This document shows, in pieces, positions 11,607 through 30,703 of a stretch of 32,000 nucleotides of DNA (positions are counted from its first letter, which is position 1; every line of letters starts with the position of its first letter). The notes under the pieces were generated by a model. The model was not told the origin of the DNA, searched no databases, and saw nothing but the letters and a program-made list of their open reading frames with translations. This stretch comes from Geobacter metallireducens GS-15. Its GTDB lineage: Bacteria > Desulfobacterota > Desulfuromonadia > Geobacterales > Geobacteraceae. The translations under genes and the position numbers were made by a program. The stretch lies in assembly GCF_000012925.1 (NCBI RefSeq), contig NC_007517.1:2520001-2552000 (forward strand), in the 5' to 3' direction.

Positions 11607-11661
11607 ATCACGCGACACCTTCTTCCGTTTTACAGCACTACCGTCCGGTAATCCAACAACA

Positions 11662-12777: not shown

Positions 12778-12863
12778 TCATTATCTGCCATGATACCCAA
12801 CTCAAGCCCGGAACCTTCAGTCAAAATGGAAAAAAATTGTTCAGCTACATCTCCAATACTTAA
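12762..12863 (-). pseudogene. Orphaned 3' coding remnant of the TetR gene, separated from its body by the IS
   Basis: Joining 14209 to 12863 across one TTAA copy keeps the TetR frame open for 33 more codons: LSIGDVAEQFFSILTEGSGLELGIMADNEWVAN, then a stop at 12764-12762. That stop overlaps the GTG start of the Fe-S gene by 16 nt, an arrangement typical of translational coupling. Confidence 0.5.
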
Positions 12864-12880
12864 CAGGTTGTTGAAAAACT
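12864..12880 (+). repeat. IS left terminal inverted repeat (CAGGTTGTTGAAAAACT)
   Basis: Matches the reverse complement of 14188-14204 (CAGGCCGTTGAAAAACT) at 15 of 17 positions. Confidence 0.8.
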
Positions 12881-12958
12881 AAACCTTTTTGATTCAATAA
12901 GTTAGCGAACTGTGCTATATTTTTACGCGTAACAATCTGAATTTACAGGAGAAAAGTT

Positions 12959-14035
12959 ATGCGCGGCGCCGAGACAAAAACCGAAGCTCTGTTCTGTTAT
13001 CTCTCCCCTGAGTCGTACGTCCCGAAGGACCACCCCTTGCGGTCGATCAGGGCGATGGTGGATAAGGCCCTTGCAGAGCTCAGCCCGCAATTCGAGGCCA
13101 TGTACTCCCACACCGGCCGGCCCTCGATTCCTCCTGAGCAGTTGCTTAAAGCACTTCTGCTTCAGGCGCTGTACACCATCAGGAGTAACCGTCTGCTGGT
13201 GGAGCAGATCAGCTACAGCATCCTGTTCCGCTGGTTTGTGGGATTGGCCCTGGACGAGAAGGTCTGGGACCACTCCTCGTTTTCCACCAACCTGGAGCGG
13301 TTGATCGATACCGACGTGGCACGGCTGCTCTTGGCAAAAGTAGTTGAGCAGGCCCGAAGGGCAAAGCTGTTGTCCGACGAGCACTTCAGCGTTGACGGCA
13401 CCCTCATCGAGGCGTGGGCTTCTATCAAGAGCTTTCGGCCCAAGGATGGACCAAAGCCTCCAGTGGGTCGTAACACGGAGCGTGATTTCCACGGCGAAAA
13501 GCTCAAAAACGACACCCATGCCTCCACCACCGATCCGGATGCGCGGATTGCCAGGAGAAGCTCGGGCAAAGAGGCGAAGCTCAGTTACCACGGGCACGCT
13601 CTCATGGAGAACCGCAACGGGATCATCGTCGATGCCAGAATCACCCACGCAACCGGTACCGCTGAGCGGGATACCGCAGTCGAGATGATCGCAGACGTCG
13701 CCGGTAACAAGCGGATCACCATGGGCGGCGACAAGGGCTACGACACCAAAGAGTGCGTCAAAGATCTGCGAGCACTCAAGGTAACCCCTCACATTGCTCA
13801 GAACACCGCTAACCGCCGCTCAGCCATCGATGGCAGGACTACCCGCCACGAAGGCTACAAAACCAGCCTGAGGATTCGCAAGCGGATCGAAGAGGCCTTC
13901 GGCTGGCTCAAGACTGTCGGCAATCTCCGCAAGACCCGGCATCGGGGAATAGCGAAAGTCGACTGGTACTTCACCATGGCCATTGCGGCATACAATCTGG
14001 TCCGGCTGCGCAATCTCGGGACGAAAACGGCATAA
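12959..14035 (+). CDS. IS5-family DDE transposase
   Basis: 358 aa with an AGGAGAA RBS. The N-terminus is like the IS5-type transposase N-domain (...HTGRPSIPPEQLLKALLLQALYTIRSNRLLVEQISYSILFRWFVGL...). The C-terminal DDE region includes DKGYD and ...RIEEAFGWLK... Confidence 0.9.
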   Translation: MRGAETKTEALFCYLSPESYVPKDHPLRSIRAMVDKALAELSPQFEAMYSHTGRPSIPPEQLLKALLLQALYTIRSNRLLVEQISYSILFRWFVGLALDEKVWDHSSFSTNLERLIDTDVARLLLAKVVEQARRAKLLSDEHFSVDGTLIEAWASIKSFRPKDGPKPPVGRNTERDFHGEKLKNDTHASTTDPDARIARRSSGKEAKLSYHGHALMENRNGIIVDARITHATGTAERDTAVEMIADVAGNKRITMGGDKGYDTKECVKDLRALKVTPHIAQNTANRRSAIDGRTTRHEGYKTSLRIRKRIEEAFGWLKTVGNLRKTRHRGIAKVDWYFTMAIAAYNLVRLRNLGTKTA

Positions 14036-14187
14036 TCAGGGGAATAATGCGACTCTTGGTGGCAAAGCCCGCCCGAAAAGGCCAAATCAAGGTAAAAAGC
14101 AAAGTTTCAAAGAACGAATAGGGCGAGATCAATGCAACTATCGGCCTAAAATGATCTCCTTGAAGGGGATTGCCCTGGAAATGAAGG

Positions 14188-14204
14188 AGTTTTTCAACGG
14201 CCTG
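14188..14204 (-). repeat. IS right terminal inverted repeat
   Basis: AGTTTTTCAACGGCCTG on the plus strand. It pairs with 12864-12880. Confidence 0.8.
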
Positions 14205-14790
14205 TTAAAATATCATTTTTCTTGTACCAAACGCACGCATGATTACACATCCCCATGATTGCCTTGGCTGTAACATGAGGATCAAGGTCTTTGAACAAGT
14301 TTGTTTCTTCTGACTGTATCTGTTGAATTATTCTAACCACCTGTTGTCCATAAAGCCTTTGTTGTTGTTGATATACAGTCCTGCTTTTACCAGTAAGAAA
14401 TTTACCATCTTTGATATTAATTGACAGAACATCCTTCCTTTCTGCCACCATTTTCATATGAAAATGGACAAACTTATTCAATTTTGTAACTCCATCAAGA
14501 CTTTTGTTATTGAGTACTGGTTTGAATTCATCAATATACGCGGGTAGAAAGTTTTCCATTACAGCTAGAAGGATACCTTCCTTACTCTTGAAATAGTGTA
14601 TCACTGTGCTCTTTGAAATCCCTACCATATCCGCAAGAATCCCTATTGACATACCTTTATAACCAACTTCGCTCATAACCATAATCGCAGTTTTTATTAA
14701 TTTATCATAGGTACTGCACTCAATTTTGCCATTATCCCTTTCACTCTCGTACGTGAGGAAATCAACTGAACAATGTCTCTTTGCAGACAT
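14194..14790 (-). CDS. TetR/AcrR-family transcriptional regulator whose last codons and stop are supplied by the IS (C-terminally truncated allele)
   Basis: The N-terminal HTH is KLIKTAIMVMSEVGYKGMSIGILADMVGISKSTVIHYFKSKEGIL. The ORF ends ...WYKKNDILTGR. Codons TGR and the stop lie inside the IS right inverted repeat (14194-14204). Confidence 0.8.
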   Translation of the reverse strand: MSAKRHCSVDFLTYESERDNGKIECSTYDKLIKTAIMVMSEVGYKGMSIGILADMVGISKSTVIHYFKSKEGILLAVMENFLPAYIDEFKPVLNNKSLDGVTKLNKFVHFHMKMVAERKDVLSINIKDGKFLTGKSRTVYQQQQRLYGQQVVRIIQQIQSEETNLFKDLDPHVTAKAIMGMCNHACVWYKKNDILTGR

Positions 14791-14870
14791 TTATTACCTC
14801 CGTGATAGAAGGGAGTCTTGGACAACCCGGCAGGTTATAATATTTTTCGTAAGCATCAGTAAACCAAGAA

Positions 14871-14890
14871 GCCCCCCCTAGCTGGGGGGG
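14871..14890 (-). terminator. GC hairpin downstream of the Cache-protein gene (C7-TAGCT-G7)
   Basis: The sequence is GCCCCCCCTAGCTGGGGGGG. On the minus strand the stem is followed by CTTCTTGGTTT. It lies 6 nt after the stop at 14896. Confidence 0.6.
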
Positions 14891-14895
14891 ATCCA

Positions 14896-15765
14896 TTATT
14901 GCGTATAATAGCCTACTGCAATAAGGTAATTGTCTACTTTACGAAATATAGTGTTCTTAACTTCTATTTTCCCCGTTAATAAATTCCTCCAACGATATGT
15001 CAATGTTCCTTTTCCCTTTTTTTTGGCAATGCCAATCATCTCCTTGACAATTGATTTACCATCAGGGTTTCTCAACTCCATTGCATCTGTGTTGACGAGT
15101 CGCGGTGTAGCACCATGAGCGCGGAAAATATTATCTTTCAAATCTACAACAAATACGTAAAGATCATCCTGTATAAACTTGCTATTAAGATCATTAAAAG
15201 CATTACACGCAGAGACAGGGTCTTTCTTCAGCGTTTCAACAGCCTGCGCAAGGAGAGCATAGGCCTGTACATCACTTGCATGCGGAATGTAGAACCCAAC
15301 AGCAATTATTCGATCCCCTATTCTTTGGAAATAAGTATGTTTGTGTTCAGGCTTCCCATCCAAACGATTGAGCCATTTGTATTCAACCGCACCGGCATTT
15401 TGACTCTTTGCCGTATCTATCATCTCACGAAAAAATAGTTTACCTTCAGCATCTCGCATGTTTGATACGTCCCGACCAATCAAAACTGATGACGATCCAC
15501 CGCTTGCGAGAAATTTCCCATTTGTTCCGATCACATAAACATAGAGATTACCCTTGACGAATTGACCCTGCATGGAGAAGTCTGCAAATGAACGATCCTT
15601 TTTTTTGTTATAGAGCTCGACAGCTCGGGCAAGCATTTCCTTAGCGTTTTTGGAATCATAGCTTTCTTCAGGCTTGGCAGTCGAAGGCTTTATTTGTTCA
15701 GCAGCAAACAACAAATGTGCTGACAACAATGTAATGAGAGCTGTAACGAGGACTACTTTTCTCAT
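14896..15765 (-). CDS. Secreted tandem Cache-like (two sCache-type repeats) protein with no output domain
   Basis: ORF 14896..15813. The ATG at 15765 follows AAGGAGA. The signal peptide is MRKVVLVTALITLLSAHLLFAAEQ. Two homologous halves each contain ...LYV(Y/F)V(I/V)...G... and end in ...IAVGFY and ...IAVGYY. No TM or signalling domain follows. Confidence 0.7.
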   Translation of the reverse strand: MRKVVLVTALITLLSAHLLFAAEQIKPSTAKPEESYDSKNAKEMLARAVELYNKKKDRSFADFSMQGQFVKGNLYVYVIGTNGKFLASGGSSSVLIGRDVSNMRDAEGKLFFREMIDTAKSQNAGAVEYKWLNRLDGKPEHKHTYFQRIGDRIIAVGFYIPHASDVQAYALLAQAVETLKKDPVSACNAFNDLNSKFIQDDLYVFVVDLKDNIFRAHGATPRLVNTDAMELRNPDGKSIVKEMIGIAKKKGKGTLTYRWRNLLTGKIEVKNTIFRKVDNYLIAVGYYTQ

Positions 15766-16009
15766 AATTGTCTCCTTTTCAACTAAATTCGTCACTCTCA
15801 ATGCAAGCTCCACATTTGTATTTGGCCCTATCGACTATCCATTATCCTACAGTCAAACCGCTCTTGTGAGATGTTTCTACTGTTGCCAAAACAGCATGTC
15901 TCCTAAGATAGTAGTCGTATCTTGCATAATCGAAAGTGAGGATTATTCATTCAAAAGCTTTATTGAACTCTGGCGCACAACAAACTATAATCTACCGCTC
16001 AATCACCAA

Positions 16010-16387
16010 TCAGTGGTTAGGAATCTGTATTAAACATTCGCTATTGGGTTGCGTTGCAATGTCTCCTGACATTATTTGACCCTCTGTAACAACTGCTTGA
16101 ACGTAATGGTCCCCCAATTCCTTGACGACCCTAATTTTTCCTACTTCAGTTTTAATCAAATAGAATCCTTCCCCCATACGATAAACCGGAACTATGGCAC
16201 CAGGACAAAATTCCTCTTTAGCCGTTTTACTATGCGCATAATAAAGGTTGACAGTATCTCCCTGTTCGGCAATGCCTCCATCTCTCACCACTGCCCGGGC
16301 CTCAGGTTGAATTGAAGCACACGCTGTCATTAAACCGGCCATCACGATAATTGCAAGTCCCGTTACCAACCGCTTAGCTCTGTTCAT
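16010..16387 (-). CDS. Small lipoprotein of unknown function
   Basis: The ATG at 16387 follows AAGGAGA. MNRAKRLVTGLAIIVMAGLMTAC is a lipobox-like signal ending in Cys. I recognise no family. Confidence 0.55.
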   Translation of the reverse strand: MNRAKRLVTGLAIIVMAGLMTACASIQPEARAVVRDGGIAEQGDTVNLYYAHSKTAKEEFCPGAIVPVYRMGEGFYLIKTEVGKIRVVKELGDHYVQAVVTEGQIMSGDIATQPNSECLIQIPNH

Positions 16388-16494
16388 ACTATCTCCTTTT
16401 CGTTGGGGTAGATTCAAATTAAATTGCATCGGAGTCTAAATAATCAGTACACACTTAGTCAACATAACTTAGAAAACACAAATCTTACTACTTA

Positions 16495-18990
16495 TCAATA
16501 ATTGTTGCTGCATTCCTTTTGCACTTCAACTGAACTTTCTTCTTCCTCAGTAGCAAATGAAACCTCGGACATGTTTACTGTCTCACTGTCAGCAACCGGT
16601 TTATTGAGCAAAAAATGCGACAATGCAGGAATCATTATCAATGCCCCGAACATATTCCACAGAAACATAAATGTAAGCAGGATTCCCATGTCTGCCTGGA
16701 ACTTGATAGGAGACCAGGCCCACGTAACCACTCCGGCAGCCAACGTAATGCCTACAAGCGCAACCACCTTTCCGGTGAAAAGAACCGCCCGTTTGTAAGC
16801 TGCTGTCAGCGTCAAACCTGCACGCTGATAGTCAAGTTGAACACTCAGCAGGTAGAGAGCGTAGTCGACTCCAATACCCACTCCGAGTGCTATTACCGGC
16901 AGAGTAGCAACCTTCACACCGATACCCAGCGCGACCATAAGCGCTTCACATAGAATGGAGGTGATCATGAGTGGGATCACTGCCACCAGGACGGCACGCC
17001 AGTTACGGAAAGTGATAAAACAAAGTAATGTGACCGCAGCATATACATAAAGCAACATTGTGCGATTCGCACGCTTAACTACTATATTAGTTACAGCATC
17101 AATACCGCTAGAGCCCGCAGCCATAAGAAACTGCCTTTCCTTGACATTATGTTGCGCGGCAAACTGCTCCACAACCTTCACTACGCGATCCAGAGTCTCT
17201 GCCTTATGATCAGTGAGATAAACCACAACTGGAACTATTGAACATGCCTTGTCGACGACATCCGGGTTGTCAGTCAGGTTCCATTGCACCGCACCACCCA
17301 ACATCATTGCATTGTTGGGAATAGCAAGCCATTTAGGATTTCCTTCAGCCAAGCCTGCCACTGTCTGCATTATGTTATCAGACAACGCAGTTGTGCCCTG
17401 TACCCCCGGGACATCTCGCAATATATTGGAAAGACGATCTATCTCATAAAGAGTTTCATAGGTACCGGCACCATTTTCTGGAGTTTTGACAATCACAACA
17501 AACTGGTCACTGGACAACTTATAGTTATTTGTAATAAAAGAATTGTCTCGATTGTAACGAGAGTCCGGCCGCAATTCCGGCGCACCGGCATCCAAATCAC
17601 CGATCTTCAACTGTGAACTCACAACGAGTCCAATGACCGCCAATATCGCCGACACTACAATGACCCTAATGGCCCAGGTTCTCTCGGTAAAACGGTCCAA
17701 GAAGTTCCAAAGCGACCCCAAACCTCTGCCACGACTCTCTACTACATCCTCATTAAGGGCGCGCCTAGCCGCAGATGGACTTACGCCTGTATAGGAAAGA
17801 AATACAGGCAGCAGCAGTAAATTGGTAAAAATCAGAATAGCCACTCCGAAACTGGCGGTTAAAGCCAGATCACGAATCACCGGGATATCAATCAACATGA
17901 GCACGCCAAAACCTACCGCATCGGCCATCAAGGCGGTTGCCCCCGCAAGAAACAGGCGTCGGAATGTGTACCGGGCTGCAACCGTTTTGTGCGTACCACG
18001 TCCAATGTCTTGCATGATACCGTTCATCTTCTGTGCACCGTGACTTACTCCGATGGCAAAGATAAGAAATGGCACAAGAACTGAGTAGGGATCAAGTTCG
18101 TAACCAAGCGTAGCAATAATTCCCAATTGCCACACAACGGCAACAAGCGAACAGAAAATAACCAACAGCGTACTACGGACGCACCGTGTGAAGGTATAGA
18201 TGATAACTGCAGCTATAACAGCTGCAACGGCAAAATAAATCATCATGAGGTACAGACCGTCAATCAGGTCACCGGCAAGTTTAGCAAAACCTATGATATG
18301 AATTTTGATCTTACCTTGGCTTGCAGACTCGTATTTTGTGCGAATTTTCTCCAGATCACGTGAAAAAGCGCCATAATCAAGTCGCTTACCTGTTTCATTG
18401 TTTGTATCCATAAGAGGCAACACGATCATGATTGATTTATAATTGTTGCCCACCAGACTACCTACAATGCCTGCCCTACGAATGTTCGAGTTGAATTTTT
18501 GCAAAGACTCAGGCGTATCGTAACTATCCGGCATCACAGCTCCGCCCCTGAACCCTTCTTCGGTTACCTCTGTCCATCGCACTCCGGCCATCCATATAGA
18601 CTTAACCCAAGGACGATCCACACCAGGGGTCAAATACAACTCTTCATTGATCTGTCTTGTAGTTTCAAGGAAATTTGTATTGAAAATATCGCCTTCAGTA
18701 TTTTCAACTACTACTCGGATATTGTTCCCCGCCGCTGGCAAATCTTTTTTGTTCTCAAAGTAGTTTTTGATATAGGGATGGTTCTGAGGAATCATTTTTT
18801 CAAAGCTGGCATTAACAACCAGTTTACTCAACTGGAATGCTAACAGAATCGTAATCAGGGCACATATACCAATAAGCCAATGCCGATTGTTGAAAACCAA
18901 TCTCTCCAACAGGTTGCCCGAGTTTTTATCAAAGTTTTTTGGATCAGACACAACCGGCATTGCATCGACTTGTTCAGTTTGGATTGCCAT
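16495..18990 (-). CDS. RND-superfamily transporter (MMPL/HpnN-like, single polypeptide)
   Basis: 831 aa. It has two repeats, each a large soluble loop followed by a block of hydrophobic helices (about aa 230-400 and 640-800). This is typical of the MMPL-like RND proteins that accompany DUF1302/DUF1329 genes. There is a GAGGA RBS. Confidence 0.8.
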   Translation of the reverse strand: MAIQTEQVDAMPVVSDPKNFDKNSGNLLERLVFNNRHWLIGICALITILLAFQLSKLVVNASFEKMIPQNHPYIKNYFENKKDLPAAGNNIRVVVENTEGDIFNTNFLETTRQINEELYLTPGVDRPWVKSIWMAGVRWTEVTEEGFRGGAVMPDSYDTPESLQKFNSNIRRAGIVGSLVGNNYKSIMIVLPLMDTNNETGKRLDYGAFSRDLEKIRTKYESASQGKIKIHIIGFAKLAGDLIDGLYLMMIYFAVAAVIAAVIIYTFTRCVRSTLLVIFCSLVAVVWQLGIIATLGYELDPYSVLVPFLIFAIGVSHGAQKMNGIMQDIGRGTHKTVAARYTFRRLFLAGATALMADAVGFGVLMLIDIPVIRDLALTASFGVAILIFTNLLLLPVFLSYTGVSPSAARRALNEDVVESRGRGLGSLWNFLDRFTERTWAIRVIVVSAILAVIGLVVSSQLKIGDLDAGAPELRPDSRYNRDNSFITNNYKLSSDQFVVIVKTPENGAGTYETLYEIDRLSNILRDVPGVQGTTALSDNIMQTVAGLAEGNPKWLAIPNNAMMLGGAVQWNLTDNPDVVDKACSIVPVVVYLTDHKAETLDRVVKVVEQFAAQHNVKERQFLMAAGSSGIDAVTNIVVKRANRTMLLYVYAAVTLLCFITFRNWRAVLVAVIPLMITSILCEALMVALGIGVKVATLPVIALGVGIGVDYALYLLSVQLDYQRAGLTLTAAYKRAVLFTGKVVALVGITLAAGVVTWAWSPIKFQADMGILLTFMFLWNMFGALIMIPALSHFLLNKPVADSETVNMSEVSFATEEEESSVEVQKECSNNY

Positions 18991-19016
18991 ATTGTCCTCG
19001 CATGTTGATAGTTTCG

Positions 19017-20075
19017 CTATTTAAGTGATTCAGTTATGACACCCCGCGAACCCACCGCAACAATGCCATTCTTGCCAGCTGGTGCCACACTGGAAAAGGC
19101 CATTGGACTTGAAACCTTCGCGGGCACAAATGTTTCGCTGCCAACGTCAATCACCAGAACCTGCCCGTCCTGACTCACCAAAACAGCACGGCCATCATCG
19201 AGAAATGTTCCTCCCGTAAGTCCAGCAGTGGTATTGGTATTCAACTTGCGCCATGTATTCCCGCGGTCGCTGCTGCGAAATGCGTTGCCACGCAGGCCGA
19301 ATGCAAGGATGGTCGTATCTTTTGCCAACAGCCCGAAAAAAGTTCCTTTGTACGGAGATGCTATTGTCACAAAACGTTGGCTGGCGCGGTCCCAGCGACG
19401 CAACATCCCCATCTCGCCGGCAAGATAAACTTCCTTACCAACCCCCTTGAGTGCATAAATGTGCAAGTTTTTTGGGTTATCTGTGCGCTCAAACAGGGGC
19501 ACCCACGTCTTACCGGCATCGGTTGTATGCATAATCAGATTAAATGCACCGGCAACAAAACCTTCTTTCTCATCAAGAAACCAAACATCCATAAAGGGCT
19601 TATCGGCCCCTTCCTGTAAAATACGTTGAATATCTGGAAGAATCTTGGAGGCAGCGGCATCTCCCTCTGCAGCCAGTTTTTCGTAATGTTTAAGCATTAT
19701 CTTGGCCACCTGATTGCCGTCAAGCTGTTTGGACCAGGTACGTCCACCGTCACCACTATGCAAAACGACACCATCATGGCCGACAGCCCAGCCTTGATCA
19801 GGCACCGGGAACTGCACTGACACAAGATTCGAACTGACCGGCACAGCAACCTGTTGCCACTTTTTCCCATTGTCGTCCGAAAGAAGAACGAGCCCCCTCG
19901 CCCCGACTGCAGCAAGTCTATTACCATTACGGGTAACCGCAGTGAGTTGGCTAGTCGTCGCATGGAGCTTCATAGACGCAGGGGTCTCAAGCGGTCCTTT
20001 GAATGCTTGTGCCGTTGTCACCCAACAAGTCATGAAAATGAAACATAACGATGTCTTTAATATTTTCGACAGCAT
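19017..20075 (-). CDS. Secreted BNR/Asp-box beta-propeller protein (Ycf48-like)
   Basis: The signal peptide is MLSKILKTSLCFIFMTCWVTTAQA. Four Asp-boxes are present: SDDNGKKW, SGDGGRTW, TTDAGKTW and SSDRGNTW. There is a GGAGG RBS. Confidence 0.8.
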   Translation of the reverse strand: MLSKILKTSLCFIFMTCWVTTAQAFKGPLETPASMKLHATTSQLTAVTRNGNRLAAVGARGLVLLSDDNGKKWQQVAVPVSSNLVSVQFPVPDQGWAVGHDGVVLHSGDGGRTWSKQLDGNQVAKIMLKHYEKLAAEGDAAASKILPDIQRILQEGADKPFMDVWFLDEKEGFVAGAFNLIMHTTDAGKTWVPLFERTDNPKNLHIYALKGVGKEVYLAGEMGMLRRWDRASQRFVTIASPYKGTFFGLLAKDTTILAFGLRGNAFRSSDRGNTWRKLNTNTTAGLTGGTFLDDGRAVLVSQDGQVLVIDVGSETFVPAKVSSPMAFSSVAPAGKNGIVAVGSRGVITESLK

Positions 20076-20210
20076 TTATGAACCTCCATTCTTCTTAATT
20101 ATTCTATTGGCAGCAGTAATCCGTTCTGCATGAAATTCCGGATGAAAAAACGGCATAAGTTATGGGCACAATTAGCCCAAAAGATACTCTTGTCCATGAA
20201 GAAGCATAAC

Positions 20211-21764
20211 TCAACACTTTAACTTACTACTTTCGTATTTCTTCTTGAGAGCAAGTTTGTCAATTTTCCCTGTAGCCGTATGTAGCAAGGCATCGGTGAA
20301 AACAACTGTCTTAGGCTTCGCATAGTTGGCCATTCTTGGCCGGCAGAATTCAATCACCTCTTCCTCGGTAAGGATTTCACCCTTTTTGGGAACGACAACT
20401 GCTTTTACCGCTTCGCCCCAGGTATCGTCCTGCACACCTATTACTGCGACTTCGGCAATCTTGGGATGATCGTGCAGCACATTTTCCACCTGCGCCGGAT
20501 AGACATTTTCACCGCCGGTAATGATCATGAAAGCCTTCCTGTCAACTAGATAGATATATCCCTCATCATCCACCATTGCCATGTCTTTGGTGTGGAGCCA
20601 ACCGCTTCGTATGGCTTCGGCAGTCTCCTCCGGTTTGTTCAAATATCCGGTCATGACCAATCCTCCACCGATCAGAATTTCACCAACCTCACCAGGTTTC
20701 ACATCCTGCCCTTTTTCGTTGACCACTCGTACAATGCAAAAAGCGGCCTCTCTCCCACATGAACCCATCCTCCGAACCGATTCACTTGATCCATTCAAAG
20801 CGGCAGCATGTTCCTCCGGTCTCAGGTAAACGACTCCAAAACTCTCAGAACAACCGTAGCACTGCGTAAACTTGCAGTCAGGAAGCAATTTCATGGCCTT
20901 TTTCAGAGTCTCCATAGGCATGGGTGCCGCGCCATACTTTATTAACTGCAAACTATTCAGATCATATTTCGCCGCATCCGCCCAATTCACCAGGAAATTC
21001 ACCACCACCGGCGCAAGATTTGTTTTGTTTATTTTATAATCCTGCACAGAACTGCAAAATTTCTGAGGATCCCATTCCCGTAGAATGGCAACAGTCGCCC
21101 CCCTGGAAAGGAACGCCAATGAGGTATAAAAGCCCACATGAAAAAGTGGAAATACATTAAGAAACCTATCATCGACGTCTACATAAAGTTCTATGAGCTC
21201 ACTACTGATTCTGTTCATTGCAATCTGGCGTGTCGCCATGGCCCCTTTTGGGGCACCGGTAGTGCCGGTCGTATATATAATGTGCGCAAGATCTTCGCCG
21301 GAAGTTGACACATCGGGTTCCATAGTAGAAGCCTTGGCAATAATGGATTCATATTCATGCATCCCTGTCACTTTGGTCCCGACCGATATACAGGTTTCAA
21401 GAAATGGCAGGTGAGGTCTCAGGGAATTGATGGTGTCGACAAATTCGGCACCTACCAATAGCACGCGGCAGCCCATATCCTCGATCACCTTTTTAATCCC
21501 TTCAGGAGCAAGACGATAATTTACCCCACCGACCGCAACACCGGCCTTGGCACCGGCAGCATAGGCATCAATAATCTCAGCACAATTCATCAGAAGAAAC
21601 CCGAGGCAATCCCCCTTCTTAAGACCACAATCAACAAGGACATTGGCGAGTCGATTCCATCTATCCCCTGCCTCTCTATAGGTAAATCGTCTATCTCCGT
21701 CTATTATTGCACTTTTGGTAGGGAATAATTTGGGGCCTCTGTTGAATATTTCTTTAAGAAGCAC
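20211..21764 (-). CDS. AMP-dependent acyl-CoA synthetase/ligase
   Basis: 517 aa with a GTG start after AGGGGG. Motifs are YTTGTTGAPKGA, TKDMAMVDDEGYIYLVDRK, ITGGENVYP and TATGKIDK. Confidence 0.9.
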   Translation of the reverse strand: MLLKEIFNRGPKLFPTKSAIIDGDRRFTYREAGDRWNRLANVLVDCGLKKGDCLGFLLMNCAEIIDAYAAGAKAGVAVGGVNYRLAPEGIKKVIEDMGCRVLLVGAEFVDTINSLRPHLPFLETCISVGTKVTGMHEYESIIAKASTMEPDVSTSGEDLAHIIYTTGTTGAPKGAMATRQIAMNRISSELIELYVDVDDRFLNVFPLFHVGFYTSLAFLSRGATVAILREWDPQKFCSSVQDYKINKTNLAPVVVNFLVNWADAAKYDLNSLQLIKYGAAPMPMETLKKAMKLLPDCKFTQCYGCSESFGVVYLRPEEHAAALNGSSESVRRMGSCGREAAFCIVRVVNEKGQDVKPGEVGEILIGGGLVMTGYLNKPEETAEAIRSGWLHTKDMAMVDDEGYIYLVDRKAFMIITGGENVYPAQVENVLHDHPKIAEVAVIGVQDDTWGEAVKAVVVPKKGEILTEEEVIEFCRPRMANYAKPKTVVFTDALLHTATGKIDKLALKKKYESSKLKC

Positions 21765-21867
21765 GACGCACCCCCTGTTGTTGATTGCAATCTTTTGTCA
21801 TATTGTTCGCTTTATTCATAATGTAGAATCAGAATGCAGTTCGTTTATCTATTTGTGCGTTTTCCAT

Positions 21868-21903
21868 GTGGTTCCGCAGCGGTTATCACCGCTGCGGAAC
21901 CAC
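21868..21903. other. Perfect 16-bp stem / 4-nt loop hairpin between the DUF1329 gene and the CoA ligase gene
   Basis: The sequence is GTGGTTCCGCAGCGGT-TATC-ACCGCTGCGGAACCAC. It starts 8 nt after the DUF1329 stop. No U-tract follows on either strand. Confidence 0.6.
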
Positions 21904-21910
21904 AACCAAC

Positions 21911-23245
21911 TTACTTCATATTCTCTTTAAGAATGAACGAAGTCATCGAATCTTGAGTCAGCTTACCGGGGGGGAGGAAGCGTACTGGCTTGTACCCGAA
22001 CTCAGGTACTTGTGTGTAAAAGATTCCAGTCACGAGATTATGGAATTGCTGTACATCTACGGCTGGAGCTTTGACATCATAGTTCGGCATGAGGGGAACA
22101 ATTTCAGACATAAAGAGTTTGCCCTTCGAGTCATAATCATCCATTACGCCGCCAAACCATGCGTCCTCGTCCAAGTAAATCATGCGTTTGCTGTAGATAT
22201 GGCGTTTACCCGGCTTCAGCCTCGCCTCGACCACCCACACACGGTGCAATTCCCAACGCATCACATCCGGGTTGGCAAACCCAGCCCTAAGTTGCTGTTC
22301 TTTTTTTGTCAAACAAAGTTTGTAGGTATTATAAGGGATATACATTTCCTTCTTTCCGACAAGTTTGAAGTCAAACCGGTCCATCAACCCACTGAACATG
22401 TCAGCGTCGTCATACGTATACACACCCGCTACCTGGGAAATCGGCGTATCGGCAGCCGCATCGGGTGACAGTCTGACACGGCGCGAAGCCGGCTGGTACG
22501 AGTATGCACGCCGTCCGATTTTCGAATCCACATAGTCAGTAATTATACTTGTCTGTCCATTGATACGAGCAGGGCCGATATACTCCCCACGATACATCCA
22601 GTATTGGTCAGGATTTTTCTTGCTCGGATTGTAGATACCATACTCTCTGTACATGAAAGTCGACTGGGTTTGCACTACTTCACCCGACGGCTTTACAAAG
22701 TAACCACCGACTTTGTAAATCATTGCAGGGAGCGCAGGTCGGGCAAAGTGGTTCCACATAACCTCGTAGCCGTTCTTGGGCACAGGAAAGGGGATACCAT
22801 GGCCACATCCTTTAGAGGTATCTAGAGATATTCCTCCATCGGTAGTTCTACATCTTGTCATATTCTTTTCTGTGTTCTCTTCAAAACTTTGGGTGTACGC
22901 TGCCGAACGTCGGGTTTGATATACATCCATCCGGAAGTTAGGATATTTTTTCAGCAAAGCCTTTTGCCCATCAGACAATTTATCAGCGTATTTATCCATG
23001 TTTTTTCCCGTTATCGAGAACAGGACCTTATCGCTGGCAAATGGATCCGGCAAATTCCCCATCCCCTTTACAAACCCTGCTGGCCGGCCGGTATAACCAC
23101 CTGTCCACGCAGGAATGGTGCCGTCCTTGTTACCAGCCTTTTCCGCTCCAGCTGGAGTAAGATGGGAAGGTAGGCCTGCCTGGGCCCCCCCTACATACGA
23201 TGTAGACACCACTAAGGCACCGATGATGATTTTTGTGAATTTCAT
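21911..23245 (-). CDS. DUF1329-family periplasmic protein (LolA-like fold family)
   Basis: Has a signal peptide followed by the characteristic N-terminus ...LTPAGAEKAGNKDGTIPAWTGGY... It is 444 aa with an AAGGAGA RBS and sits directly downstream of the DUF1302-like barrel gene. Confidence 0.8.
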   Translation of the reverse strand: MKFTKIIIGALVVSTSYVGGAQAGLPSHLTPAGAEKAGNKDGTIPAWTGGYTGRPAGFVKGMGNLPDPFASDKVLFSITGKNMDKYADKLSDGQKALLKKYPNFRMDVYQTRRSAAYTQSFEENTEKNMTRCRTTDGGISLDTSKGCGHGIPFPVPKNGYEVMWNHFARPALPAMIYKVGGYFVKPSGEVVQTQSTFMYREYGIYNPSKKNPDQYWMYRGEYIGPARINGQTSIITDYVDSKIGRRAYSYQPASRRVRLSPDAAADTPISQVAGVYTYDDADMFSGLMDRFDFKLVGKKEMYIPYNTYKLCLTKKEQQLRAGFANPDVMRWELHRVWVVEARLKPGKRHIYSKRMIYLDEDAWFGGVMDDYDSKGKLFMSEIVPLMPNYDVKAPAVDVQQFHNLVTGIFYTQVPEFGYKPVRFLPPGKLTQDSMTSFILKENMK

Positions 23246-23296
23246 AGTATCTCCTTTGCTTGGTGCAAGACTGTTAATACCGCCAAATTGATCTAC

Positions 23297-24931
23297 CTAG
23301 AATGCATACTTGTACGTGAATGATAACCAGCCACGATCCTGGAGTTGTGAACCATTGCTCGCGGTAATTGTACTGCCATTGTCCTTGTATGTTGCCAGAT
23401 AGCCGTTATATGCCAGACTGAACGTATGCAGGGTGTTGTAAATCGCATTGAAACCTACTCCATAGGAACCGGCACCTTCATTACCGCCCCCCATAGTTGC
23501 TCCGTTACCAAACAAACCATAAGAGACACTCATCGGCATCTCAAGATCCCAGCCCTCAGCGAAAGCTGTCCACGCGGGAGTGAATTTGAGATATCCCACC
23601 ATGTTCTCGTCTGTCACACAACCGTATGCAGCACTGTCTTTTCCTGGAGCCTTCTTGTAACAAGCATTGAACAGGTTTTCGTTATCAGTGACTCGAAGAT
23701 ACTTGCTGAATGCAAATTCGGCTATTACTGACGAGTTGGTCCATAATGGCGTATGGCCAAAGCTGCCGATCGCATTTGCCAAGATATGGACTGTATCGCC
23801 ACGTGCACCCTCGAGGGATCCATTGGCTATTGAACTGTTCAATGCCGTATTATGTCGATAACTGAACTCTGAACCGAAACTAAAACCTAAAAGCTGCTTA
23901 GAGAAACTGATACCCACGAGATGAGCATTCTTTGCGTAAACAGCTCTGTAGCTCCCGGCACCAGGGTTTAAGCTCACCCAGGGAGAGGTCTCGTCAAACA
24001 TCCGGTAATATAGACCAAGAGTTCCATCCAACCATTGGGGACTCCACCTGGCGCTAAGACCGAAGTCGCCATACGTATCCGGTTTTACTGCACCCTCTCG
24101 CCTCAGAAAAACGCCGGGTGCAAGTGAGAATCGATCTGGCCCATTAAGAATGAAATCGGTAGCAGCCAAATAGGTGCCCCCTTCCGGGAACCGGCTCCCT
24201 CGCCATTCCAAATAATATTGGCCTGCAACGGAGAGTTCCGGAGTCAGCTGTATTTTACCCGCAATCTGGGTAATCGGCATGGAGACTTCCTTTGCATCAA
24301 CACCAGGAGTTGAAAGTGCTTTCACTACATCGGTAGGAGCCTGAGCATAGGAAACGCTATGGGCGGACAAGACGACCGTTTCACCCCAAAGAACCGTCTG
24401 GCGCCCTATCGCCACATTAACCGGCATATCGCCAAGATCGAAGCTGCCCCACACATTTGCATCCAGCAATTCTCCCGAAGGTCCAATATAATATCGTTTT
24501 GTGTACGAGTTGTACTTGCCGCCGGAATAACTTCCACGGTCAGCCAAGGAAGGATTGGTCTTGGCATTATCATTGTACGCAACGTCAGCCCAAACCGCCC
24601 CACTCACGCGGATGCCCAATTTCTTTTTGTAGCTGAAATCAAGCTCTGACAAGAGGTCAAGCCGATTCGTCACCAAGTCTCCACTTTTGTCAAACTTGTA
24701 ATCACCTTCATCTGAAGACGCGGTGTTGCCAATCTTGTGGTCCATACTCTGGATACGCATGCCGAGGTTATAACGGATGTTATTTCCCCATGCCAGGAAC
24801 AGGTCTGGATTGCCTGTGTTAATTTCAAAGGCATTTGCCGCAACCAGTGAACCGAGAACACATGTTACTGCCACTAGAGAAACAACCGGGAAGCGGCACA
24901 ATTTCCATTTCGCTTTAAAAATATCGCTCAC
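23297..24931 (-). CDS. DUF1302-family outer-membrane beta-barrel protein
   Basis: The GTG start follows AGGAGG. It has a signal peptide (...VTCVLGSLVAANA), long stretches of alternating hydrophobic residues rich in Gly, Tyr, Asn and Ser, and a C-terminal ...FTYKYAF with terminal Phe (OMP signature). The family call comes from its pairing with DUF1329. Confidence 0.7.
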   Translation of the reverse strand: MSDIFKAKWKLCRFPVVSLVAVTCVLGSLVAANAFEINTGNPDLFLAWGNNIRYNLGMRIQSMDHKIGNTASSDEGDYKFDKSGDLVTNRLDLLSELDFSYKKKLGIRVSGAVWADVAYNDNAKTNPSLADRGSYSGGKYNSYTKRYYIGPSGELLDANVWGSFDLGDMPVNVAIGRQTVLWGETVVLSAHSVSYAQAPTDVVKALSTPGVDAKEVSMPITQIAGKIQLTPELSVAGQYYLEWRGSRFPEGGTYLAATDFILNGPDRFSLAPGVFLRREGAVKPDTYGDFGLSARWSPQWLDGTLGLYYRMFDETSPWVSLNPGAGSYRAVYAKNAHLVGISFSKQLLGFSFGSEFSYRHNTALNSSIANGSLEGARGDTVHILANAIGSFGHTPLWTNSSVIAEFAFSKYLRVTDNENLFNACYKKAPGKDSAAYGCVTDENMVGYLKFTPAWTAFAEGWDLEMPMSVSYGLFGNGATMGGGNEGAGSYGVGFNAIYNTLHTFSLAYNGYLATYKDNGSTITASNGSQLQDRGWLSFTYKYAF

Positions 24932-25096: not shown

Positions 25097-25112
25097 GTTC
25101 GAACGGTCGTTA
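25097..25112. promoter_or_regulatory. Operator-like site C (GTTCGAACGGTCGTTA)
   Basis: Lies 166 nt upstream of the DUF1302 gene start, inside a 674-bp AT-rich intergenic region. On the coding strand a possible -10 (TACTAT) sits directly upstream. It carries the same 10-nt core as sites A and B, in the opposite orientation. Confidence 0.4.
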
Positions 25113-30398: not shown

Positions 30399-30703
30399 AG
30401 GACATATCCTCTGCGATGGGGCTCGTTGTAATTGACCGGAAAAACTGCCATCGCCGTGAGATTTGCACCAACGTGCAAATCTCACGGCTACGTTCGTATT
30501 ACTGCTGGGAAACAAGGTACGATACATTATAAAATGTAGTTTTGTATAATTACACTTTCAGTCCATATCTATATTATTCATTCTAATGAACCAGCTAACT
30601 TCAAGTCCACAGAAACCTCAGCATGTCATCAATTACCGCTATTAGGCGCTCTCGCTCCACCATGCAACCATGCTCAGTTACTGGCAAAACAGACCAACCC
30701 CAC

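What the first reader, a model, noticed from the sequence alone, without database searches (positions are those of the whole stretch)
16010..24931. The DUF1302 barrel, DUF1329, BNR propeller and RND/MMPL envelope module has an acyl-CoA synthetase embedded in it: a candidate trans-envelope uptake-plus-activation system
The gene order on the minus strand is:
- an outer-membrane barrel (DUF1302-like, C-terminal ...YKYAF)
- a periplasmic DUF1329 protein (LolA-like family)
- a cytoplasmic CoA ligase
- a secreted Asp-box propeller
- an MMPL-like RND protein
- a small lipoprotein

The DUF1302/DUF1329/BNR/RND quartet recurs in proteobacterial genomes near genes for hydrophobic-substrate metabolism. 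To my knowledge it has no established mechanism or transport direction. Here a CoA ligase sits between the periplasmic and inner-membrane components. The whole unit is preceded by operator site C. This points to import of a hydrophobic carboxylate coupled to thioesterification (vectorial acylation, by analogy with FadL/FadD) rather than export. This is the most plausible poorly described system in the window.
Basis: partly seen in the sequence, partly recalled or inferred. Interest (0 to 1): 0.7.

Follow-up and report, generated by a model that had tools for sequence, protein, structure and literature searches.

The report
Envelope transporter operon carrying a CoA ligase
This is a Geobacter metallireducens copy of a widespread but mechanistically unsolved four-protein envelope transport system (AmeABCD type) with an acyl-CoA ligase gene inserted into it, and relatives of that ligase sit next to the same system in other bacteria, which ties the system to breakdown of a hydrophobic acid without showing the direction of transport.

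Summary
Window 16010-24931 (minus strand) is Gmet_2243-2248 in the aromatics island of Geobacter metallireducens GS-15. It encodes a DUF1302 barrel, a DUF1329 LolA-fold protein, an AMP-forming ligase, a Ycf48-like BNR propeller, an HAE3/MMPL RND protein and a small lipoprotein.

The four envelope genes are a known kind: AmeABCD of Castellaniella, PP_0765/6 plus PP_2018/9 of P. putida, and Sama_1588-91. The published readings conflict (efflux, cell-wall export, esterase, substrate transport).

New here:
- None of 61 canonical quartets surveyed has a ligase between DUF1329 and BNR. That junction is a natural seam marked by a conserved stem-loop. Other lineages carry an acyl-CoA dehydrogenase or a stress-protein gene there.
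- The Gmet_2246 ligase clade lies beside DUF1329-family genes in 4 of 7 independent contexts. One is an orthologous five-gene module in Noviherbaspirillum with the ligase first.
- A palindromic operator motif occurs four times in the window, always intergenic. It links this operon to neighbouring catabolic operons.

The ligase is therefore functionally tied to the system. Import rather than export remains an inference; I put it at about 0.5. The small lipoprotein is not a conserved component. Verdict: a new variant of a known, unsolved system, of moderate interest.

The parts
25097..25112 (-). Operator-like palindromic site (core CGACCGTTCG at 25100-25109), 169 nt upstream of the DUF1302 start.
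   Evidence: The motif CGAMCGTTCG has four sites in the window, all intergenic (6600, 10693, 25100, 30709), against 0.09 expected. The site at 30709 is a perfect 20-nt palindrome. The motif also occurs upstream of DUF1302 in the 78% relative L082.
23297..24931 (-). Gmet_2248, DUF1302 outer-membrane beta-barrel (AmeA-like)
   Evidence: Pfam PF06980 E 1e-100. Signal peptide and C-terminal YKYAF. The AF2 model has pLDDT 85.6, and its best PDB fold matches are OccK1/OpdK, OccAB and other porins at TM about 0.5, not TolC or FadL.
21911..23245 (-). Gmet_2247, DUF1329 periplasmic LolA-fold protein (AmeB-like)
   Evidence: Pfam PF07044 E 1e-120. 100% identical to ABB32474 of G. metallireducens. The AF2 model has pLDDT 87.6. 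Foldseek matches are LolA3 9tp6 (TMt 0.82), the DUF1329 protein 4z48 (0.76) and LolA.
21867..21904 (-). Perfect 17-bp stem-loop directly after the DUF1329 stop, with no U-tract. It marks the seam between the outer-membrane and inner-membrane modules.
   Evidence: z = -5.1. The equivalent position is strongly structured in 43 of 61 other quartets, with mean -30 kcal/mol against -15 and -16 at the other junctions. Only 1 of 61 has a T-tract after it.
20211..21764 (-). Gmet_2246, cytoplasmic AMP-forming acyl-CoA ligase (FadD13-like). A lineage-specific insertion at the seam.
   Evidence: Pfam AMP-binding plus AMP-binding_C. The best NCBIfam hit, PRK06187, is below its cut-off. The best PDB hit is Mtb FadD13, 3e-79. 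A good SD precedes the GTG start. There are no terminators in the 146-nt or 135-nt flanks. Clade relatives lie next to quartets in L086, L092 and L094.
19017..20075 (-). Gmet_2245, secreted Ycf48-like BNR/Asp-box beta-propeller (AmeC-like)
   Evidence: Pfam PSII_BNR 1e-23. PDB Ycf48 5ojr and 2xbg at about 1e-16. Signal peptide and four Asp-box-like motifs.
16495..18990 (-). Gmet_2244, HAE3/MMPL-type RND inner-membrane protein (AmeD-like)
   Evidence: Pfam MMPL 3e-18 and TIGR00921 HAE3 1e-43. Weak C-terminal match to HpnN 6wu0. Hydropathy fits the RND topology. 78% identical to the RND of L001 and 65% to that of L094.
16010..16387 (-). Gmet_2243, small probable lipoprotein (about 125 aa from M15). 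Co-oriented, but not a conserved member of the system.
   Evidence: Lipobox LMTAC. The family has 54 representatives and no Pfam entry. It is absent from all quartet loci held. The nearest relative lies between a Cus/Czc-type RND operon and a Cu-ATPase gene.
14896..15765 (-). Gmet_2242, secreted protein made of two sCache_2-type domains with no output domain. An occasional accessory of the quartet and a possible periplasmic ligand binder.
   Evidence: Pfam dCache_2 and sCache_2. Signal peptide from M17. Homologues at 52-53% identity lie directly after the RND gene in L022 and near the quartet in L077. Weaker ones are in L065 and L071.
14872..14891 (-). Terminator-like GC-rich hairpin after the Cache-like gene. 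Probable end of the transcription unit.
   Evidence: 7-bp stem with 6 GC pairs, followed by a T-rich tail.
14194..14790 (-). Gmet_2241, TetR-family regulator (TetR_N plus TetR_C_24). Candidate binder of the palindromic operator. Its last codons come from the inverted repeat of IS Gmet_2240.
   Evidence: Pfam. IS inverted repeats at 12860-12880 and 14188-14208. In-silico excision changes only the last few residues. A regulator with the same Pfam architecture lies near the L094 module.

Best explanation
Gmet_2248-2244 is an AmeABCD-type four-component envelope system. It has two modules.

- Outer-membrane module: a porin-like DUF1302 barrel and a periplasmic LolA-fold DUF1329 protein with a cavity suited to hydrophobic ligands.
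- Inner-membrane module: a Ycf48-like propeller bound to an HAE3/MMPL RND protein driven by the proton-motive force.

I propose that the system handles a poorly soluble organic substrate of the adjacent catabolic genes, and that the net direction is inward:
1. The barrel and DUF1329 take the molecule across the outer membrane and periplasm.
2. The propeller-RND pair hands it to the inner membrane.
3. The FadD13-like ligase Gmet_2246, at the cytoplasmic face, traps the carboxylate as a CoA thioester.

The unit is co-regulated with neighbouring catabolic operons through a shared palindromic operator, probably bound by the TetR protein Gmet_2241.

Shown: the identities and folds of the parts, the two-module seam, the recurrent linkage of this ligase clade to the system, and the shared operator motif.
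Inferred: co-transcription, physical contacts (from published AlphaFold models of homologues), the carboxylate nature of the substrate, and above all the inward direction.
For: - Family and fold assignments.
- The locus lies in the 300-kb aromatics catabolic island, in a low-GC segment (0.46, against 0.55-0.59 for the IS and the window edge) flanked by an IS. That is an accessory catabolic context, not a housekeeping one.
- The ligase clade is linked to the system. In L094 (Noviherbaspirillum) the order is ligase (53% identity), DUF1302 (51%), DUF1329 (48%), BNR (46%), RND (65%), followed by ETF-QO and enoyl-CoA hydratase genes. In L086/87 a partial quartet cut by the contig end (DUF1329-BNR-MMPL) is followed by a Gmet_2252-type ligase, a Gmet_2251-type MFS and four Gmet_2246-type ligases. 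In L092 three paralogues lie with an OprD gene and a DUF1329-DUF1302 pair.
- Ligases in general are associated with the quartet. Of 61 quartets, 24 have an AMP-ligase within 10 kb and 9-10 have one directly adjacent on the same strand.
- Other cytoplasmic genes occupy the same seam elsewhere: an acyl-CoA dehydrogenase in L035 and a universal stress protein gene in ORM2a.
- The outer-membrane partner resembles substrate-specific uptake channels (OccK1/OpdK with vanillate, BenF-like). No TolC-type or membrane-fusion protein is present among the six proteins scanned.
- Published phenotypes fit substrate acquisition. P. putida mutants fail specifically on Tween 20 and butyl stearate. An ameB transposon mutant grows poorly on monoterpenes and perillic acid. 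A Delftia DUF1329 mutant is impaired on phenanthrene, and the homologous cluster is very highly expressed in a benzene degrader.
- Published AF-multimer models predict DUF1302-DUF1329 and DUF1329-BNR-RND contacts.
- The operator motif is shared by four operons.
- There are no terminators around the ligase.
- Precedent for a ligase in a lipid-import operon: fadD5 in mce1.
Against: - To my knowledge (memory, not tested here), all characterised bacterial RND proteins export.
- The only direct study of a homologous quartet (AmeABCD) concluded efflux and tolerance, though its evidence was modest.
- The ligase position is unique to this genome (0 of 61). It lies downstream of a strong stem-loop, so its co-expression with the outer-membrane genes is unproven.
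- Ligases adjacent to other quartets belong to different subfamilies (25-34% identity). This fits pathway co-regulation without any mechanistic coupling.
- An MFS monocarboxylate-type carrier next door (Gmet_2251, conserved with the set in L086) could be the real inner-membrane importer.
- Three of the seven ligase-clade contexts show no quartet within the DNA held.
- No expression or mutant data exist for Gmet_2243-2248. They do not appear in the held text of the second supplementary file of Butler 2007, presumably the benzoate microarray table.
Confidence: 0.5

Rival explanations
1. Efflux and tolerance pump, as published for AmeABCD. The RND-propeller pair extracts a toxic hydrophobic substrate or intermediate from the inner membrane or periplasm. 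DUF1329 and the DUF1302 barrel pass it out. This keeps intracellular levels tolerable while the catabolic enzymes, including the ligase, work. The ligase is only a co-regulated pathway gene that landed in the operon.
For: - RND precedent: AmeD is an HAE3 protein, and the ameABCD deletion lowers monoterpene tolerance and slightly raises Nile Red accumulation.
- The ligase insertion is lineage-specific and sits at a permissive seam.
- Ligases adjacent to other quartets come from unrelated subfamilies.
- A separate MFS importer with its own ligase gene sits next door.
- From general knowledge: solvent efflux pumps are commonly encoded beside catabolic genes.
Against: - There is no TolC-type outer-membrane factor or membrane-fusion protein. 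The barrel resembles uptake channels.
- P. putida mutants fail on butyl stearate, which is not an obvious toxicant, and show no reported defect on free fatty acids.
- The AmeABCD efflux evidence is weak. The Nile Red difference was seen only in CCCP-treated cells, and biomass was reduced on monoterpene as sole carbon source.
- The same ligase clade is repeatedly linked to the system in three other organisms.
Confidence: 0.3
2. Envelope-remodelling system. The four proteins move an endogenous lipid or cell-wall component to the outer membrane, or build outer-membrane vesicles or 'nanopods' that help capture hydrophobic substrates. The ligase activates or recycles the lipid concerned.
For: - Price et al. 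proposed export of a cell-wall component, based on pleiotropic cofitness phenotypes in Shewanella and P. stutzeri.
- DUF1302 and DUF1329 proteins were found in Delftia nanopods.
- The HAE3 relatives HpnN and BstA move endogenous lipids outward.
Against: - This copy lies in a horizontally acquired, IS-flanked catabolic island and has a repressor-type operator shared with catabolic operons.
- Many genomes carry several paralogous copies next to different catabolic clusters.
- Similarity to HpnN and BstA is marginal and far below the equivalog cut-offs.
Confidence: 0.1
3. DUF1302/DUF1329 act as an esterase or hydrolase for hydrophobic esters at the cell surface (the hypothesis of Thompson et al. 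2020). The released acid is then activated by the ligase.
For: - Specific fitness defects on Tween 20 and butyl stearate in P. putida.
- A ligase in the operon would fit activation of a released acid.
Against: - No hydrolase domain or fold was found. DUF1329 models as a LolA-type carrier and DUF1302 as a barrel.
- The group that proposed the idea later re-read these proteins as transport components.
Confidence: 0.03

Closest known systems
AmeABCD of Castellaniella defragrans 65Phen (PMC6394551)
   Same: The same four families: DUF1302 barrel, DUF1329 LolA-like protein, COG4447/Ycf48-like propeller and HAE3 RND. It is also encoded in a catabolic island of an anaerobic degrader of hydrophobic compounds and is inducible.
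   Different: ameABCD is contiguous, whereas here a ligase separates B from C. Here there are also a TetR-type operator and extra downstream genes (lipoprotein, Cache-like protein). AmeABCD was interpreted as an exporter. No experiment exists for the Geobacter copy.
P. putida PP_0765/PP_0766 plus PP_2018/PP_2019, Shewanella Sama_1588-1591 and P. stutzeri Psest_1122-3 / 1923-4 (RB-TnSeq cofitness groups; 10.1101/072470, 10.1101/2020.07.04.188060, PMC10866462)
   Same: The same four families, shown by cofitness to work together. In Pseudomonas the set is split exactly at the DUF1329|BNR junction where the Geobacter ligase sits. They lie near fatty-acid catabolic genes.
   Different: LuxR-type regulation in Pseudomonas. 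No ligase inside the unit. The phenotypes (Tween 20, butyl stearate) are known there and unknown here.
'Nanopod' cluster of the benzene-degrading Desulfobacterota ORM2a (PMC13101534)
   Same: Anaerobic aromatic degrader in the same broad lineage. The order is porin-like protein, DUF1329, then cytoplasmic genes, then Ycf48-like protein and MMPL, so there is an insertion at the same seam. The outer-membrane pair is more abundant than the inner-membrane pair.
   Different: The inserted genes are a universal stress protein and a hypothetical protein, not a ligase. The DUF1329 proteins are only distantly related.
FadL/FadD vectorial acylation (E. coli; from general knowledge)
   Same: The concept is the same: an outer-membrane channel for a hydrophobic acid plus a cytoplasmic-face acyl-CoA synthetase that traps it.
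   Different: FadL is a 14-stranded hatch barrel of a different family, with no periplasmic carrier, propeller or RND. The fadL and fadD genes are unlinked.
Mce1 fatty/mycolic-acid importer with fadD5 as the first operon gene (M. tuberculosis; PMC2867952, 10.1101/2024.10.29.620959)
   Same: A long-chain acyl-CoA synthetase gene is encoded inside a trans-envelope lipid-import operon. FadD5 is among the better PDB sequence matches of Gmet_2246.
   Different: Mce systems are ABC-driven with MlaD-like subunits. No component other than the ligase is homologous.
HpnN / MmpL / BstA lipid-exporting RND proteins; NPC1-NPC2 (the latter from general knowledge)
   Same: HAE3/MMPL-type RND proteins that move very hydrophobic lipids and work with soluble lipid carriers rather than TolC. 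NPC2-to-NPC1 shows that an RND protein can accept a lipid from a soluble carrier and insert it into its own membrane.
   Different: Sequence similarity to HpnN is marginal (E about 1e-5 over 140 residues). Those systems have no DUF1302, DUF1329 or propeller partners. The bacterial examples move endogenous lipids outward.

Membership tests
AmeABCD-type quartet (DUF1302 / DUF1329 / Ycf48-like BNR / HAE3 RND) | DUF1302 outer-membrane beta-barrel | tested here: met
   PF06980 E 1e-100 over the full model. The AF2 model is a large barrel with pLDDT 85.6.
AmeABCD-type quartet (DUF1302 / DUF1329 / Ycf48-like BNR / HAE3 RND) | Periplasmic DUF1329 protein with LolA-like fold | tested here: met
   PF07044 E 1e-120. 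Foldseek matches 9tp6, 4z48, 3bk5 and LolA. Signal peptide present.
AmeABCD-type quartet (DUF1302 / DUF1329 / Ycf48-like BNR / HAE3 RND) | Secreted COG4447/Ycf48-like BNR propeller | tested here: met
   PSII_BNR 1e-23. Ycf48 structures at about 1e-16. Signal peptide present.
AmeABCD-type quartet (DUF1302 / DUF1329 / Ycf48-like BNR / HAE3 RND) | HAE3/MMPL RND protein with 12 TM segments and two periplasmic loops | tested here: met
   MMPL is above its cut-off. TIGR00921 scores 1e-43 but is below its subfamily cut-off. The hydropathy pattern fits. 44-78% identity to the RND genes of other quartets.
AmeABCD-type quartet (DUF1302 / DUF1329 / Ycf48-like BNR / HAE3 RND) | Four genes contiguous in the order A-B-C-D | tested here: not met
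   The order is kept, but a 1.55-kb ligase gene separates B from C. 61 of 81 surveyed loci are contiguous, and none has a ligase there.
AmeABCD-type quartet (DUF1302 / DUF1329 / Ycf48-like BNR / HAE3 RND) | Induced by, and needed for growth on or tolerance of, a hydrophobic substrate | not testable with these tools
   No expression or mutant data were found for Gmet_2243-2248.
Canonical tripartite RND efflux pump (AcrAB-TolC type) | TolC-family outer-membrane factor (OEP) | tested here: not met
   No OEP hit in the cluster proteins. The outer-membrane protein is a porin-like DUF1302 barrel.
Canonical tripartite RND efflux pump (AcrAB-TolC type) | Membrane-fusion (HlyD/AcrA-like) adaptor and ACR_tran-type RND | tested here: not met
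   No such Pfam hits. The RND matches MMPL/HAE3, and HAE1 structures match only at E about 6e-4 over one TM bundle.
FadL/FadD vectorial acylation | FadL-family (14-strand hatch) outer-membrane channel | tested here: not met
   The barrel is DUF1302. No entry described as FadL appears among the 50 fold matches shown, which are Occ/OprD-type channels and general porins.
FadL/FadD vectorial acylation | FadD-type long-chain acyl-CoA synthetase | tested here: inconclusive
   The AMP-binding superfamily assignment is clear, and the best structure match is FadD13. The FadD equivalog models are far below their cut-offs (226 bits against 884) and PRK06187 is just below (454 against 476). The substrate is unknown.
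HpnN/MmpL endogenous-lipid exporters | Equivalog-level similarity to HpnN, MmpL or BstA | tested here: not met
   TIGR03480 scores 67 bits against a cut-off of 752. BstA scores 26 against 1400. PDB HpnN matches at E 9e-6 over the C-terminal 140 residues only.
TetR-repressed catabolic regulon | Palindromic operator shared by several promoters, plus a TetR gene in the cluster | tested here: inconclusive
   Four intergenic sites against 0.09 expected, one of them a perfect 20-nt palindrome. A TetR_N plus TetR_C_24 gene is present. Binding was not tested.

The most novel reading that the evidence does not exclude
The DUF1302/DUF1329/propeller/RND machine is a proton-motive-force-driven inward conduit. 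A porin-like barrel and a LolA-fold carrier deliver a hydrophobic acid to an RND protein that inserts it into the inner membrane, as NPC2 does for NPC1. A dedicated membrane-facing acyl-CoA ligase then completes vectorial uptake. This would be the first bacterial RND protein shown to work in nutrient import. It would also assign a function to one of the most widespread 'dark' envelope systems of Proteobacteria.
Probability: 0.3. Interest if true: 0.8.

Novelty: new variant of a known kind. Interest (0 to 1): 0.48.

Why it matters
DUF1302/DUF1329/BNR/RND systems are very common. The word-indexed search scored more than 7,900 DUF1329 relatives at E <= 1e-20. They are highly expressed in hydrocarbon degraders and were recently ranked among the top uncharacterised envelope proteins of P. 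aeruginosa (PMC13499233). Their substrate and direction of transport are still disputed.

A ligase clade that travels with the system gives a concrete handle: find what Gmet_2246 and its relatives activate, and the cargo is probably identified. G. metallireducens is, as far as I recall, genetically tractable, so uptake versus efflux could be tested directly.

The conserved stem-loop at the seam also explains why the system splits into two operons in Pseudomonas, and why foreign genes accumulate at that point.

Tried and rejected
- **Terminators or promoters isolating the ligase.** The consensus scan found none in the 146-nt and 135-nt flanks. The stem-loop after DUF1329 has no U-tract.
- **Small lipoprotein as a fifth conserved component.** Rejected. 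It has no homologue in any quartet locus. Its nearest relative sits in a metal-RND/Cu-ATPase cluster.
- **TetR truncated and inactivated by the IS.** In-silico excision restores an ORF only 3 residues longer, so only the last few codons are replaced. I do not claim inactivation.
- **Operator motif conserved across all quartet loci.** The 10 matches in 87 loci are about what chance gives. Only the L082 site, in the 78% relative, is credibly homologous.
- **Sigma-54 promoter upstream of Gmet_2248.** It is present in the relatives L001 and L082 but absent here.
- **L093 as a copy of the window's SDR/SnoaL/glyoxalase gene set.** Only the ligase is close (58%). The rest is about 34% or undetected.
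- **Rfam scan of the whole window.** Nothing reached the gathering thresholds.
- **Exact-sequence look-ups of the window's own proteins.** These mostly failed, so the locus was identified through the 100% hit P0001 and the coordinates in the Butler 2007 supplement.
- **Limit of the neighbourhood survey.** The figure of 0 of 61 therefore does not exclude other embedded ligases. The L094 module was missed by that survey and was found only from the ligase side.


Full report
**Where the window comes from**

The DUF1329 protein is 100% identical to ABB32474 of Geobacter metallireducens GS-15. The gene coordinates in Additional file 1 of Butler et al. 2007 (PMC1924859) equal the window coordinates plus 2,520,000.

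The finding therefore covers Gmet_2243 to Gmet_2248. These lie inside the 300-kb 'aromatics island' (Gmet_2037-2284). The segment is low in GC: 0.46 for 14194-24931. The IS element has 0.55 and the window edge 0.59. The IS Gmet_2240 abuts the segment, and Butler et al. report that it is 100% identical to Gmet_2091. This is an accessory, horizontally acquired catabolic context.

**Check of the observation**

The six minus-strand ORFs are at the stated coordinates.

| Gene | Coordinates | Assignment | Evidence |
|---|---|---|---|
| Gmet_2248 | 23297-24931 | DUF1302 barrel | Pfam 1e-100 |
| Gmet_2247 | 21911-23245 | DUF1329 | Pfam 1e-119 |
| Gmet_2246 | 20211-21764 | AMP-forming ligase | AMP-binding 4e-70, AMP-binding_C 3e-22 |
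| Gmet_2245 | 19017-20075 | Ycf48-like BNR propeller | PSII_BNR 1e-23 |
| Gmet_2244 | 16495-18990 | RND | MMPL 3e-18; HAE3 TIGR00921 1e-43, below its cut-off |
| Gmet_2243 | 16010-16429 | small lipoprotein | no family |

- The sequences show signal peptides on the barrel, DUF1329 and the propeller. The barrel ends in YKYAF. The small protein carries LMTAC. The ligase has a P-loop and no export signal. The RND shows an RND-type hydropathy pattern.
- An AlphaFold model of DUF1329 (pLDDT 87.6) matches LolA-fold structures, including the solved DUF1329 protein 4z48.
- A model of DUF1302 (pLDDT 85.6) is a large barrel. Its nearest solved folds are the OccK1/OpdK, OccAB and BenF-like uptake channels and general porins, at TM about 0.5. 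No TolC or FadL entry appears among the 50 matches shown.
- The propeller matches Ycf48 structures.
- The ligase is closest to M. tuberculosis FadD13. Feruloyl-CoA synthetase, FadD8 and FadD5 follow.

Two more genes lie downstream on the same strand.

- A secreted protein built of two sCache_2-type domains with no output domain (Gmet_2242, 14896-15765). A terminator-like hairpin follows it at 14872-14891.
- A TetR gene (Gmet_2241).

Homologues of the Cache-like protein at 52-53% identity lie directly after the RND gene in a Geobacter MAG (L022) and near a quartet in Zoogloea (L077).

The small lipoprotein is a different case. It belongs to a small family of 54 representatives. That family is absent from every quartet locus I hold. 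Its nearest relative lies between a Cus/Czc-type RND operon and a copper ATPase gene. I treat it as a passenger.

**Regulation**

CGAMCGTTCG occurs four times in the window, each time between genes:

- upstream of the SnoaL-like gene (6600);
- upstream of the glyoxalase-like gene (10693);
- 169 nt upstream of the DUF1302 start (25100);
- upstream of the ligase pseudogene Gmet_2252 (30709).

Shuffles predict 0.09 matches. The site at 30709 is a perfect 20-nt palindrome, GCAACCGAACGTTCGGTTGC. The 78%-identical relative L082 has the motif upstream of its DUF1302 gene. There it lies just downstream of a sigma-54-type promoter that the Geobacter copy lacks.

The envelope operon therefore appears to belong to one regulon with at least three neighbouring catabolic operons. 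The TetR protein is the obvious candidate binder, but that is untested.

**What is already known**

The quartet is not undescribed.

- It is AmeABCD of Castellaniella defragrans. The proteins are induced by monoterpenes. [quoted passage not shown] The deletion mutant is less tolerant, and the authors concluded efflux.
- Price et al. found the four families cofit in Shewanella, Kangiella and Pseudomonas. They proposed export of a cell-wall component.
- Thompson et al. found that PP_0765/6 and PP_2018/9 are needed on Tween 20 and butyl stearate. They proposed an esterase.
- The same group later used AlphaFold co-folding to predict DUF1302-DUF1329 and DUF1329-propeller-RND complexes. They re-read the proteins as a transport system.
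- A 2026 paper reports ipTM 0.84 for the barrel-DUF1329 pair. It notes that no structure or function has been established.
- A benzene-degrading Desulfobacterota strain expresses a homologous cluster at very high level.

Direction and cargo remain open.

**How unusual the embedded ligase is**

I fetched 80 loci from GTDB species representatives with a DUF1329 profile. I annotated them by tblastn with the window's proteins.

- 61 have a strictly canonical, contiguous DUF1302-DUF1329-BNR-RND set. None has a ligase between DUF1329 and BNR.
- The closest full relative, L001, has the plain quartet followed by an MFS gene and CoA-metabolism genes. Its identities to the Geobacter proteins are RND 78%, BNR 70%, barrel 68% and DUF1329 62%.
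- Butler's table lists four consecutive orthologues for Gmet_2244, 2245, 2247 and 2248 in the comparison genome, presumably Geobacter FRC-32. It lists none for the ligase.

The position inside the quartet is therefore a lineage-specific insertion.

**The insertion site is a natural seam**

- Pseudomonas splits the quartet at exactly this junction.
- ORM2a has a stress-protein gene and a hypothetical gene there.
- An Aromatoleum MAG (L035) has an acyl-CoA dehydrogenase gene there.
- The 70 nt after the DUF1329 stop codon are strongly structured in most quartets. The mean MFE is -30.2 kcal/mol and 43 of 61 fold at -25 or lower. The means after the DUF1302 and BNR stops are -15.4 and -16.0. One caveat: the two control stretches run into the next coding region sooner.
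- Only 1 of 61 hairpins is followed by a T-tract.
- In the window the element is a perfect 17-bp stem at 21867-21904. The first 70 nt after the DUF1329 stop fold at -37.2 kcal/mol, and the whole intergenic gap has z = -5.1. The ligase lies just downstream of it.

I read the hairpin as an intercistronic stabiliser or attenuator that sets a higher level of the outer-membrane pair. This agrees with the protein ranks reported for ORM2a. It is an inference.

**The ligase is not a random passenger**

- Ligases in general are over-represented near quartets. 24 of 61 have one within 10 kb. 9-10 have one directly adjacent on the same strand. From my rough estimate that AMP-ligases make up about 0.6% of genes, I would expect fewer than one adjacent case.
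- Those adjacent ligases are only 25-34% identical to Gmet_2246. They belong to other subfamilies.
- Gmet_2246 belongs to a distinct clade, at 49% identity or more, followed by a drop to about 42%.

I examined seven independent contexts of this clade:

| Context | What lies near the ligase |
|---|---|
| Gmet | Ligase embedded in the quartet |
| L094, Noviherbaspirillum sedimenti | Ligase (53%) immediately upstream, same strand, of DUF1302 (51%), DUF1329 (48%), BNR (46%) and RND (65%). A TetR_C_24 regulator is nearby. ETF-QO and enoyl-CoA hydratase genes follow. |
| L086/87 | A partial quartet cut by the contig end (DUF1329-BNR-MMPL), then a Gmet_2252-type ligase, a Gmet_2251-type MFS, four Gmet_2246-type ligases and a Gmet_2239-type Fe-S protein |
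| L092 | Three paralogues with an OprD gene and a DUF1329-DUF1302 pair about 3 kb downstream of the last ligase |
| L084, L085, L093 | No quartet in the DNA held |

So 4 of 7 contexts link this ligase clade to DUF1329-family genes. The position of the ligase varies: first, third, or after the quartet. This pattern is what one expects of a functional partnership maintained by selection.

**Mechanism and its limits**

I favour a catabolic substrate-handling role with net inward movement, followed by CoA trapping. My confidence is about 0.5. The reasons:

- the accessory catabolic context;
- the shared operator;
- the ligase linkage;
- an outer-membrane partner that resembles uptake channels;
- the absence of TolC and adaptor proteins;
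- published mutant phenotypes on non-toxic esters.

The mce1-fadD5 operon is a precedent for a ligase gene inside a lipid-import operon.

Against this reading:

- To my knowledge, every characterised bacterial RND protein exports.
- The one direct study of a homologue argued for efflux.
- A neighbouring MFS monocarboxylate-type carrier (Gmet_2251) could be the inner-membrane importer. In GS-15 its paired ligase Gmet_2252 is frameshifted.

Nothing I could compute separates import from efflux. The decisive experiments are listed in the next-steps field.

**Verdict**

This is a new operon variant of a known but unsolved system. The added value is the conserved ligase partnership and the seam architecture. 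Interest is moderate.

Noticed in passing
window 21867-21904; equivalent positions in L001-L081: A strongly structured stem-loop without a U-tract follows the DUF1329 stop codon in most DUF1302/DUF1329/BNR/RND clusters (43 of 61 at -25 kcal/mol or lower). It marks a seam where the operon is split in Pseudomonas, or where foreign genes are inserted (ligase here, acyl-CoA dehydrogenase in L035, stress-protein gene in ORM2a).
   Followed up: yes
window 28739-30527 (-): The second AMP-ligase (Gmet_2252) is broken into two overlapping ORFs by a frameshift near 29430-29460 and is missing from the published protein table, so it is probably a pseudogene. An intact relative (54-59% identical) in L086 sits between the RND gene and the MFS gene, in the same ligase-then-MFS order as here.
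   Followed up: partly
window 12860-14208: IS element Gmet_2240 (IS5-type DDE transposase) has 21-nt inverted repeats at 12860-12880 and 14188-14208. The right repeat supplies the last codons and the stop of the TetR gene Gmet_2241. In-silico excision gives an ORF only 3 residues longer, so the effect on the repressor is unclear.
   Followed up: yes
window 16010-16429 (-); L088 8001-8405: The small lipoprotein Gmet_2243 belongs to an unnamed family of about 125-aa lipoproteins (54 representatives, no Pfam entry). Its closest relative, and a second, more distant copy, lie in a copper/RND/P-type ATPase cluster. This hints at a metal-related or general RND-associated role rather than a role in this system.
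   Followed up: partly
window 14896-15765 (-): Gmet_2242 is a secreted protein made only of two sCache_2-type domains, with no transmembrane or signalling output. It may be a periplasmic small-molecule binder. Homologues sit directly after the RND gene in L022 and L065.
   Followed up: partly
window 1-1926 (-) and 187-1335 (+): The window starts inside a molybdopterin oxidoreductase gene on the minus strand (642 residues open to the edge, with an N-terminal Cys motif). The 382-aa plus-strand ORF is its antisense shadow. It matched the antisense strand of a molybdopterin oxidoreductase gene in L093 at 37% identity.
   Followed up: partly
L086 5389-16434 (and L087): A metagenomic contig carries six AMP-ligase genes and one MFS gene in a same-strand row directly after a DUF1329-BNR-MMPL set. 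Four of the ligases are Gmet_2246-type paralogues. EthD, a Gmet_2239-like Fe-S protein and acyl-CoA dehydrogenases follow. This suggests a pathway for a family of related acids.
   Followed up: partly
window 30453-30488: A perfect 16-bp inverted repeat with a 4-nt loop lies inside the annotated 5' end of the Gmet_2252 ORF. Homology to relatives starts only at residue 44, so the repeat is probably in the 5' leader. Its function is unknown.
   Followed up: no
window 1000-32000: Nearly the whole window has 39-55% GC, while its first kilobase and the IS have 58-59%. The lowest values are in the TetR and Cache genes (0.36-0.41). This suggests a foreign segment within the aromatics island.
   Followed up: partly
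window 1923-2387, 7734-8237, 10752-11714, 31003-31446 (all -): There are four thioesterase genes (three hotdog 4HBT-type and one TesB-like) and three AMP-ligase genes in 32 kb, with no acyl-CoA dehydrogenase, enoyl-CoA hydratase or thiolase. This is an unusual composition for a CoA-dependent catabolic cluster.
   Followed up: no
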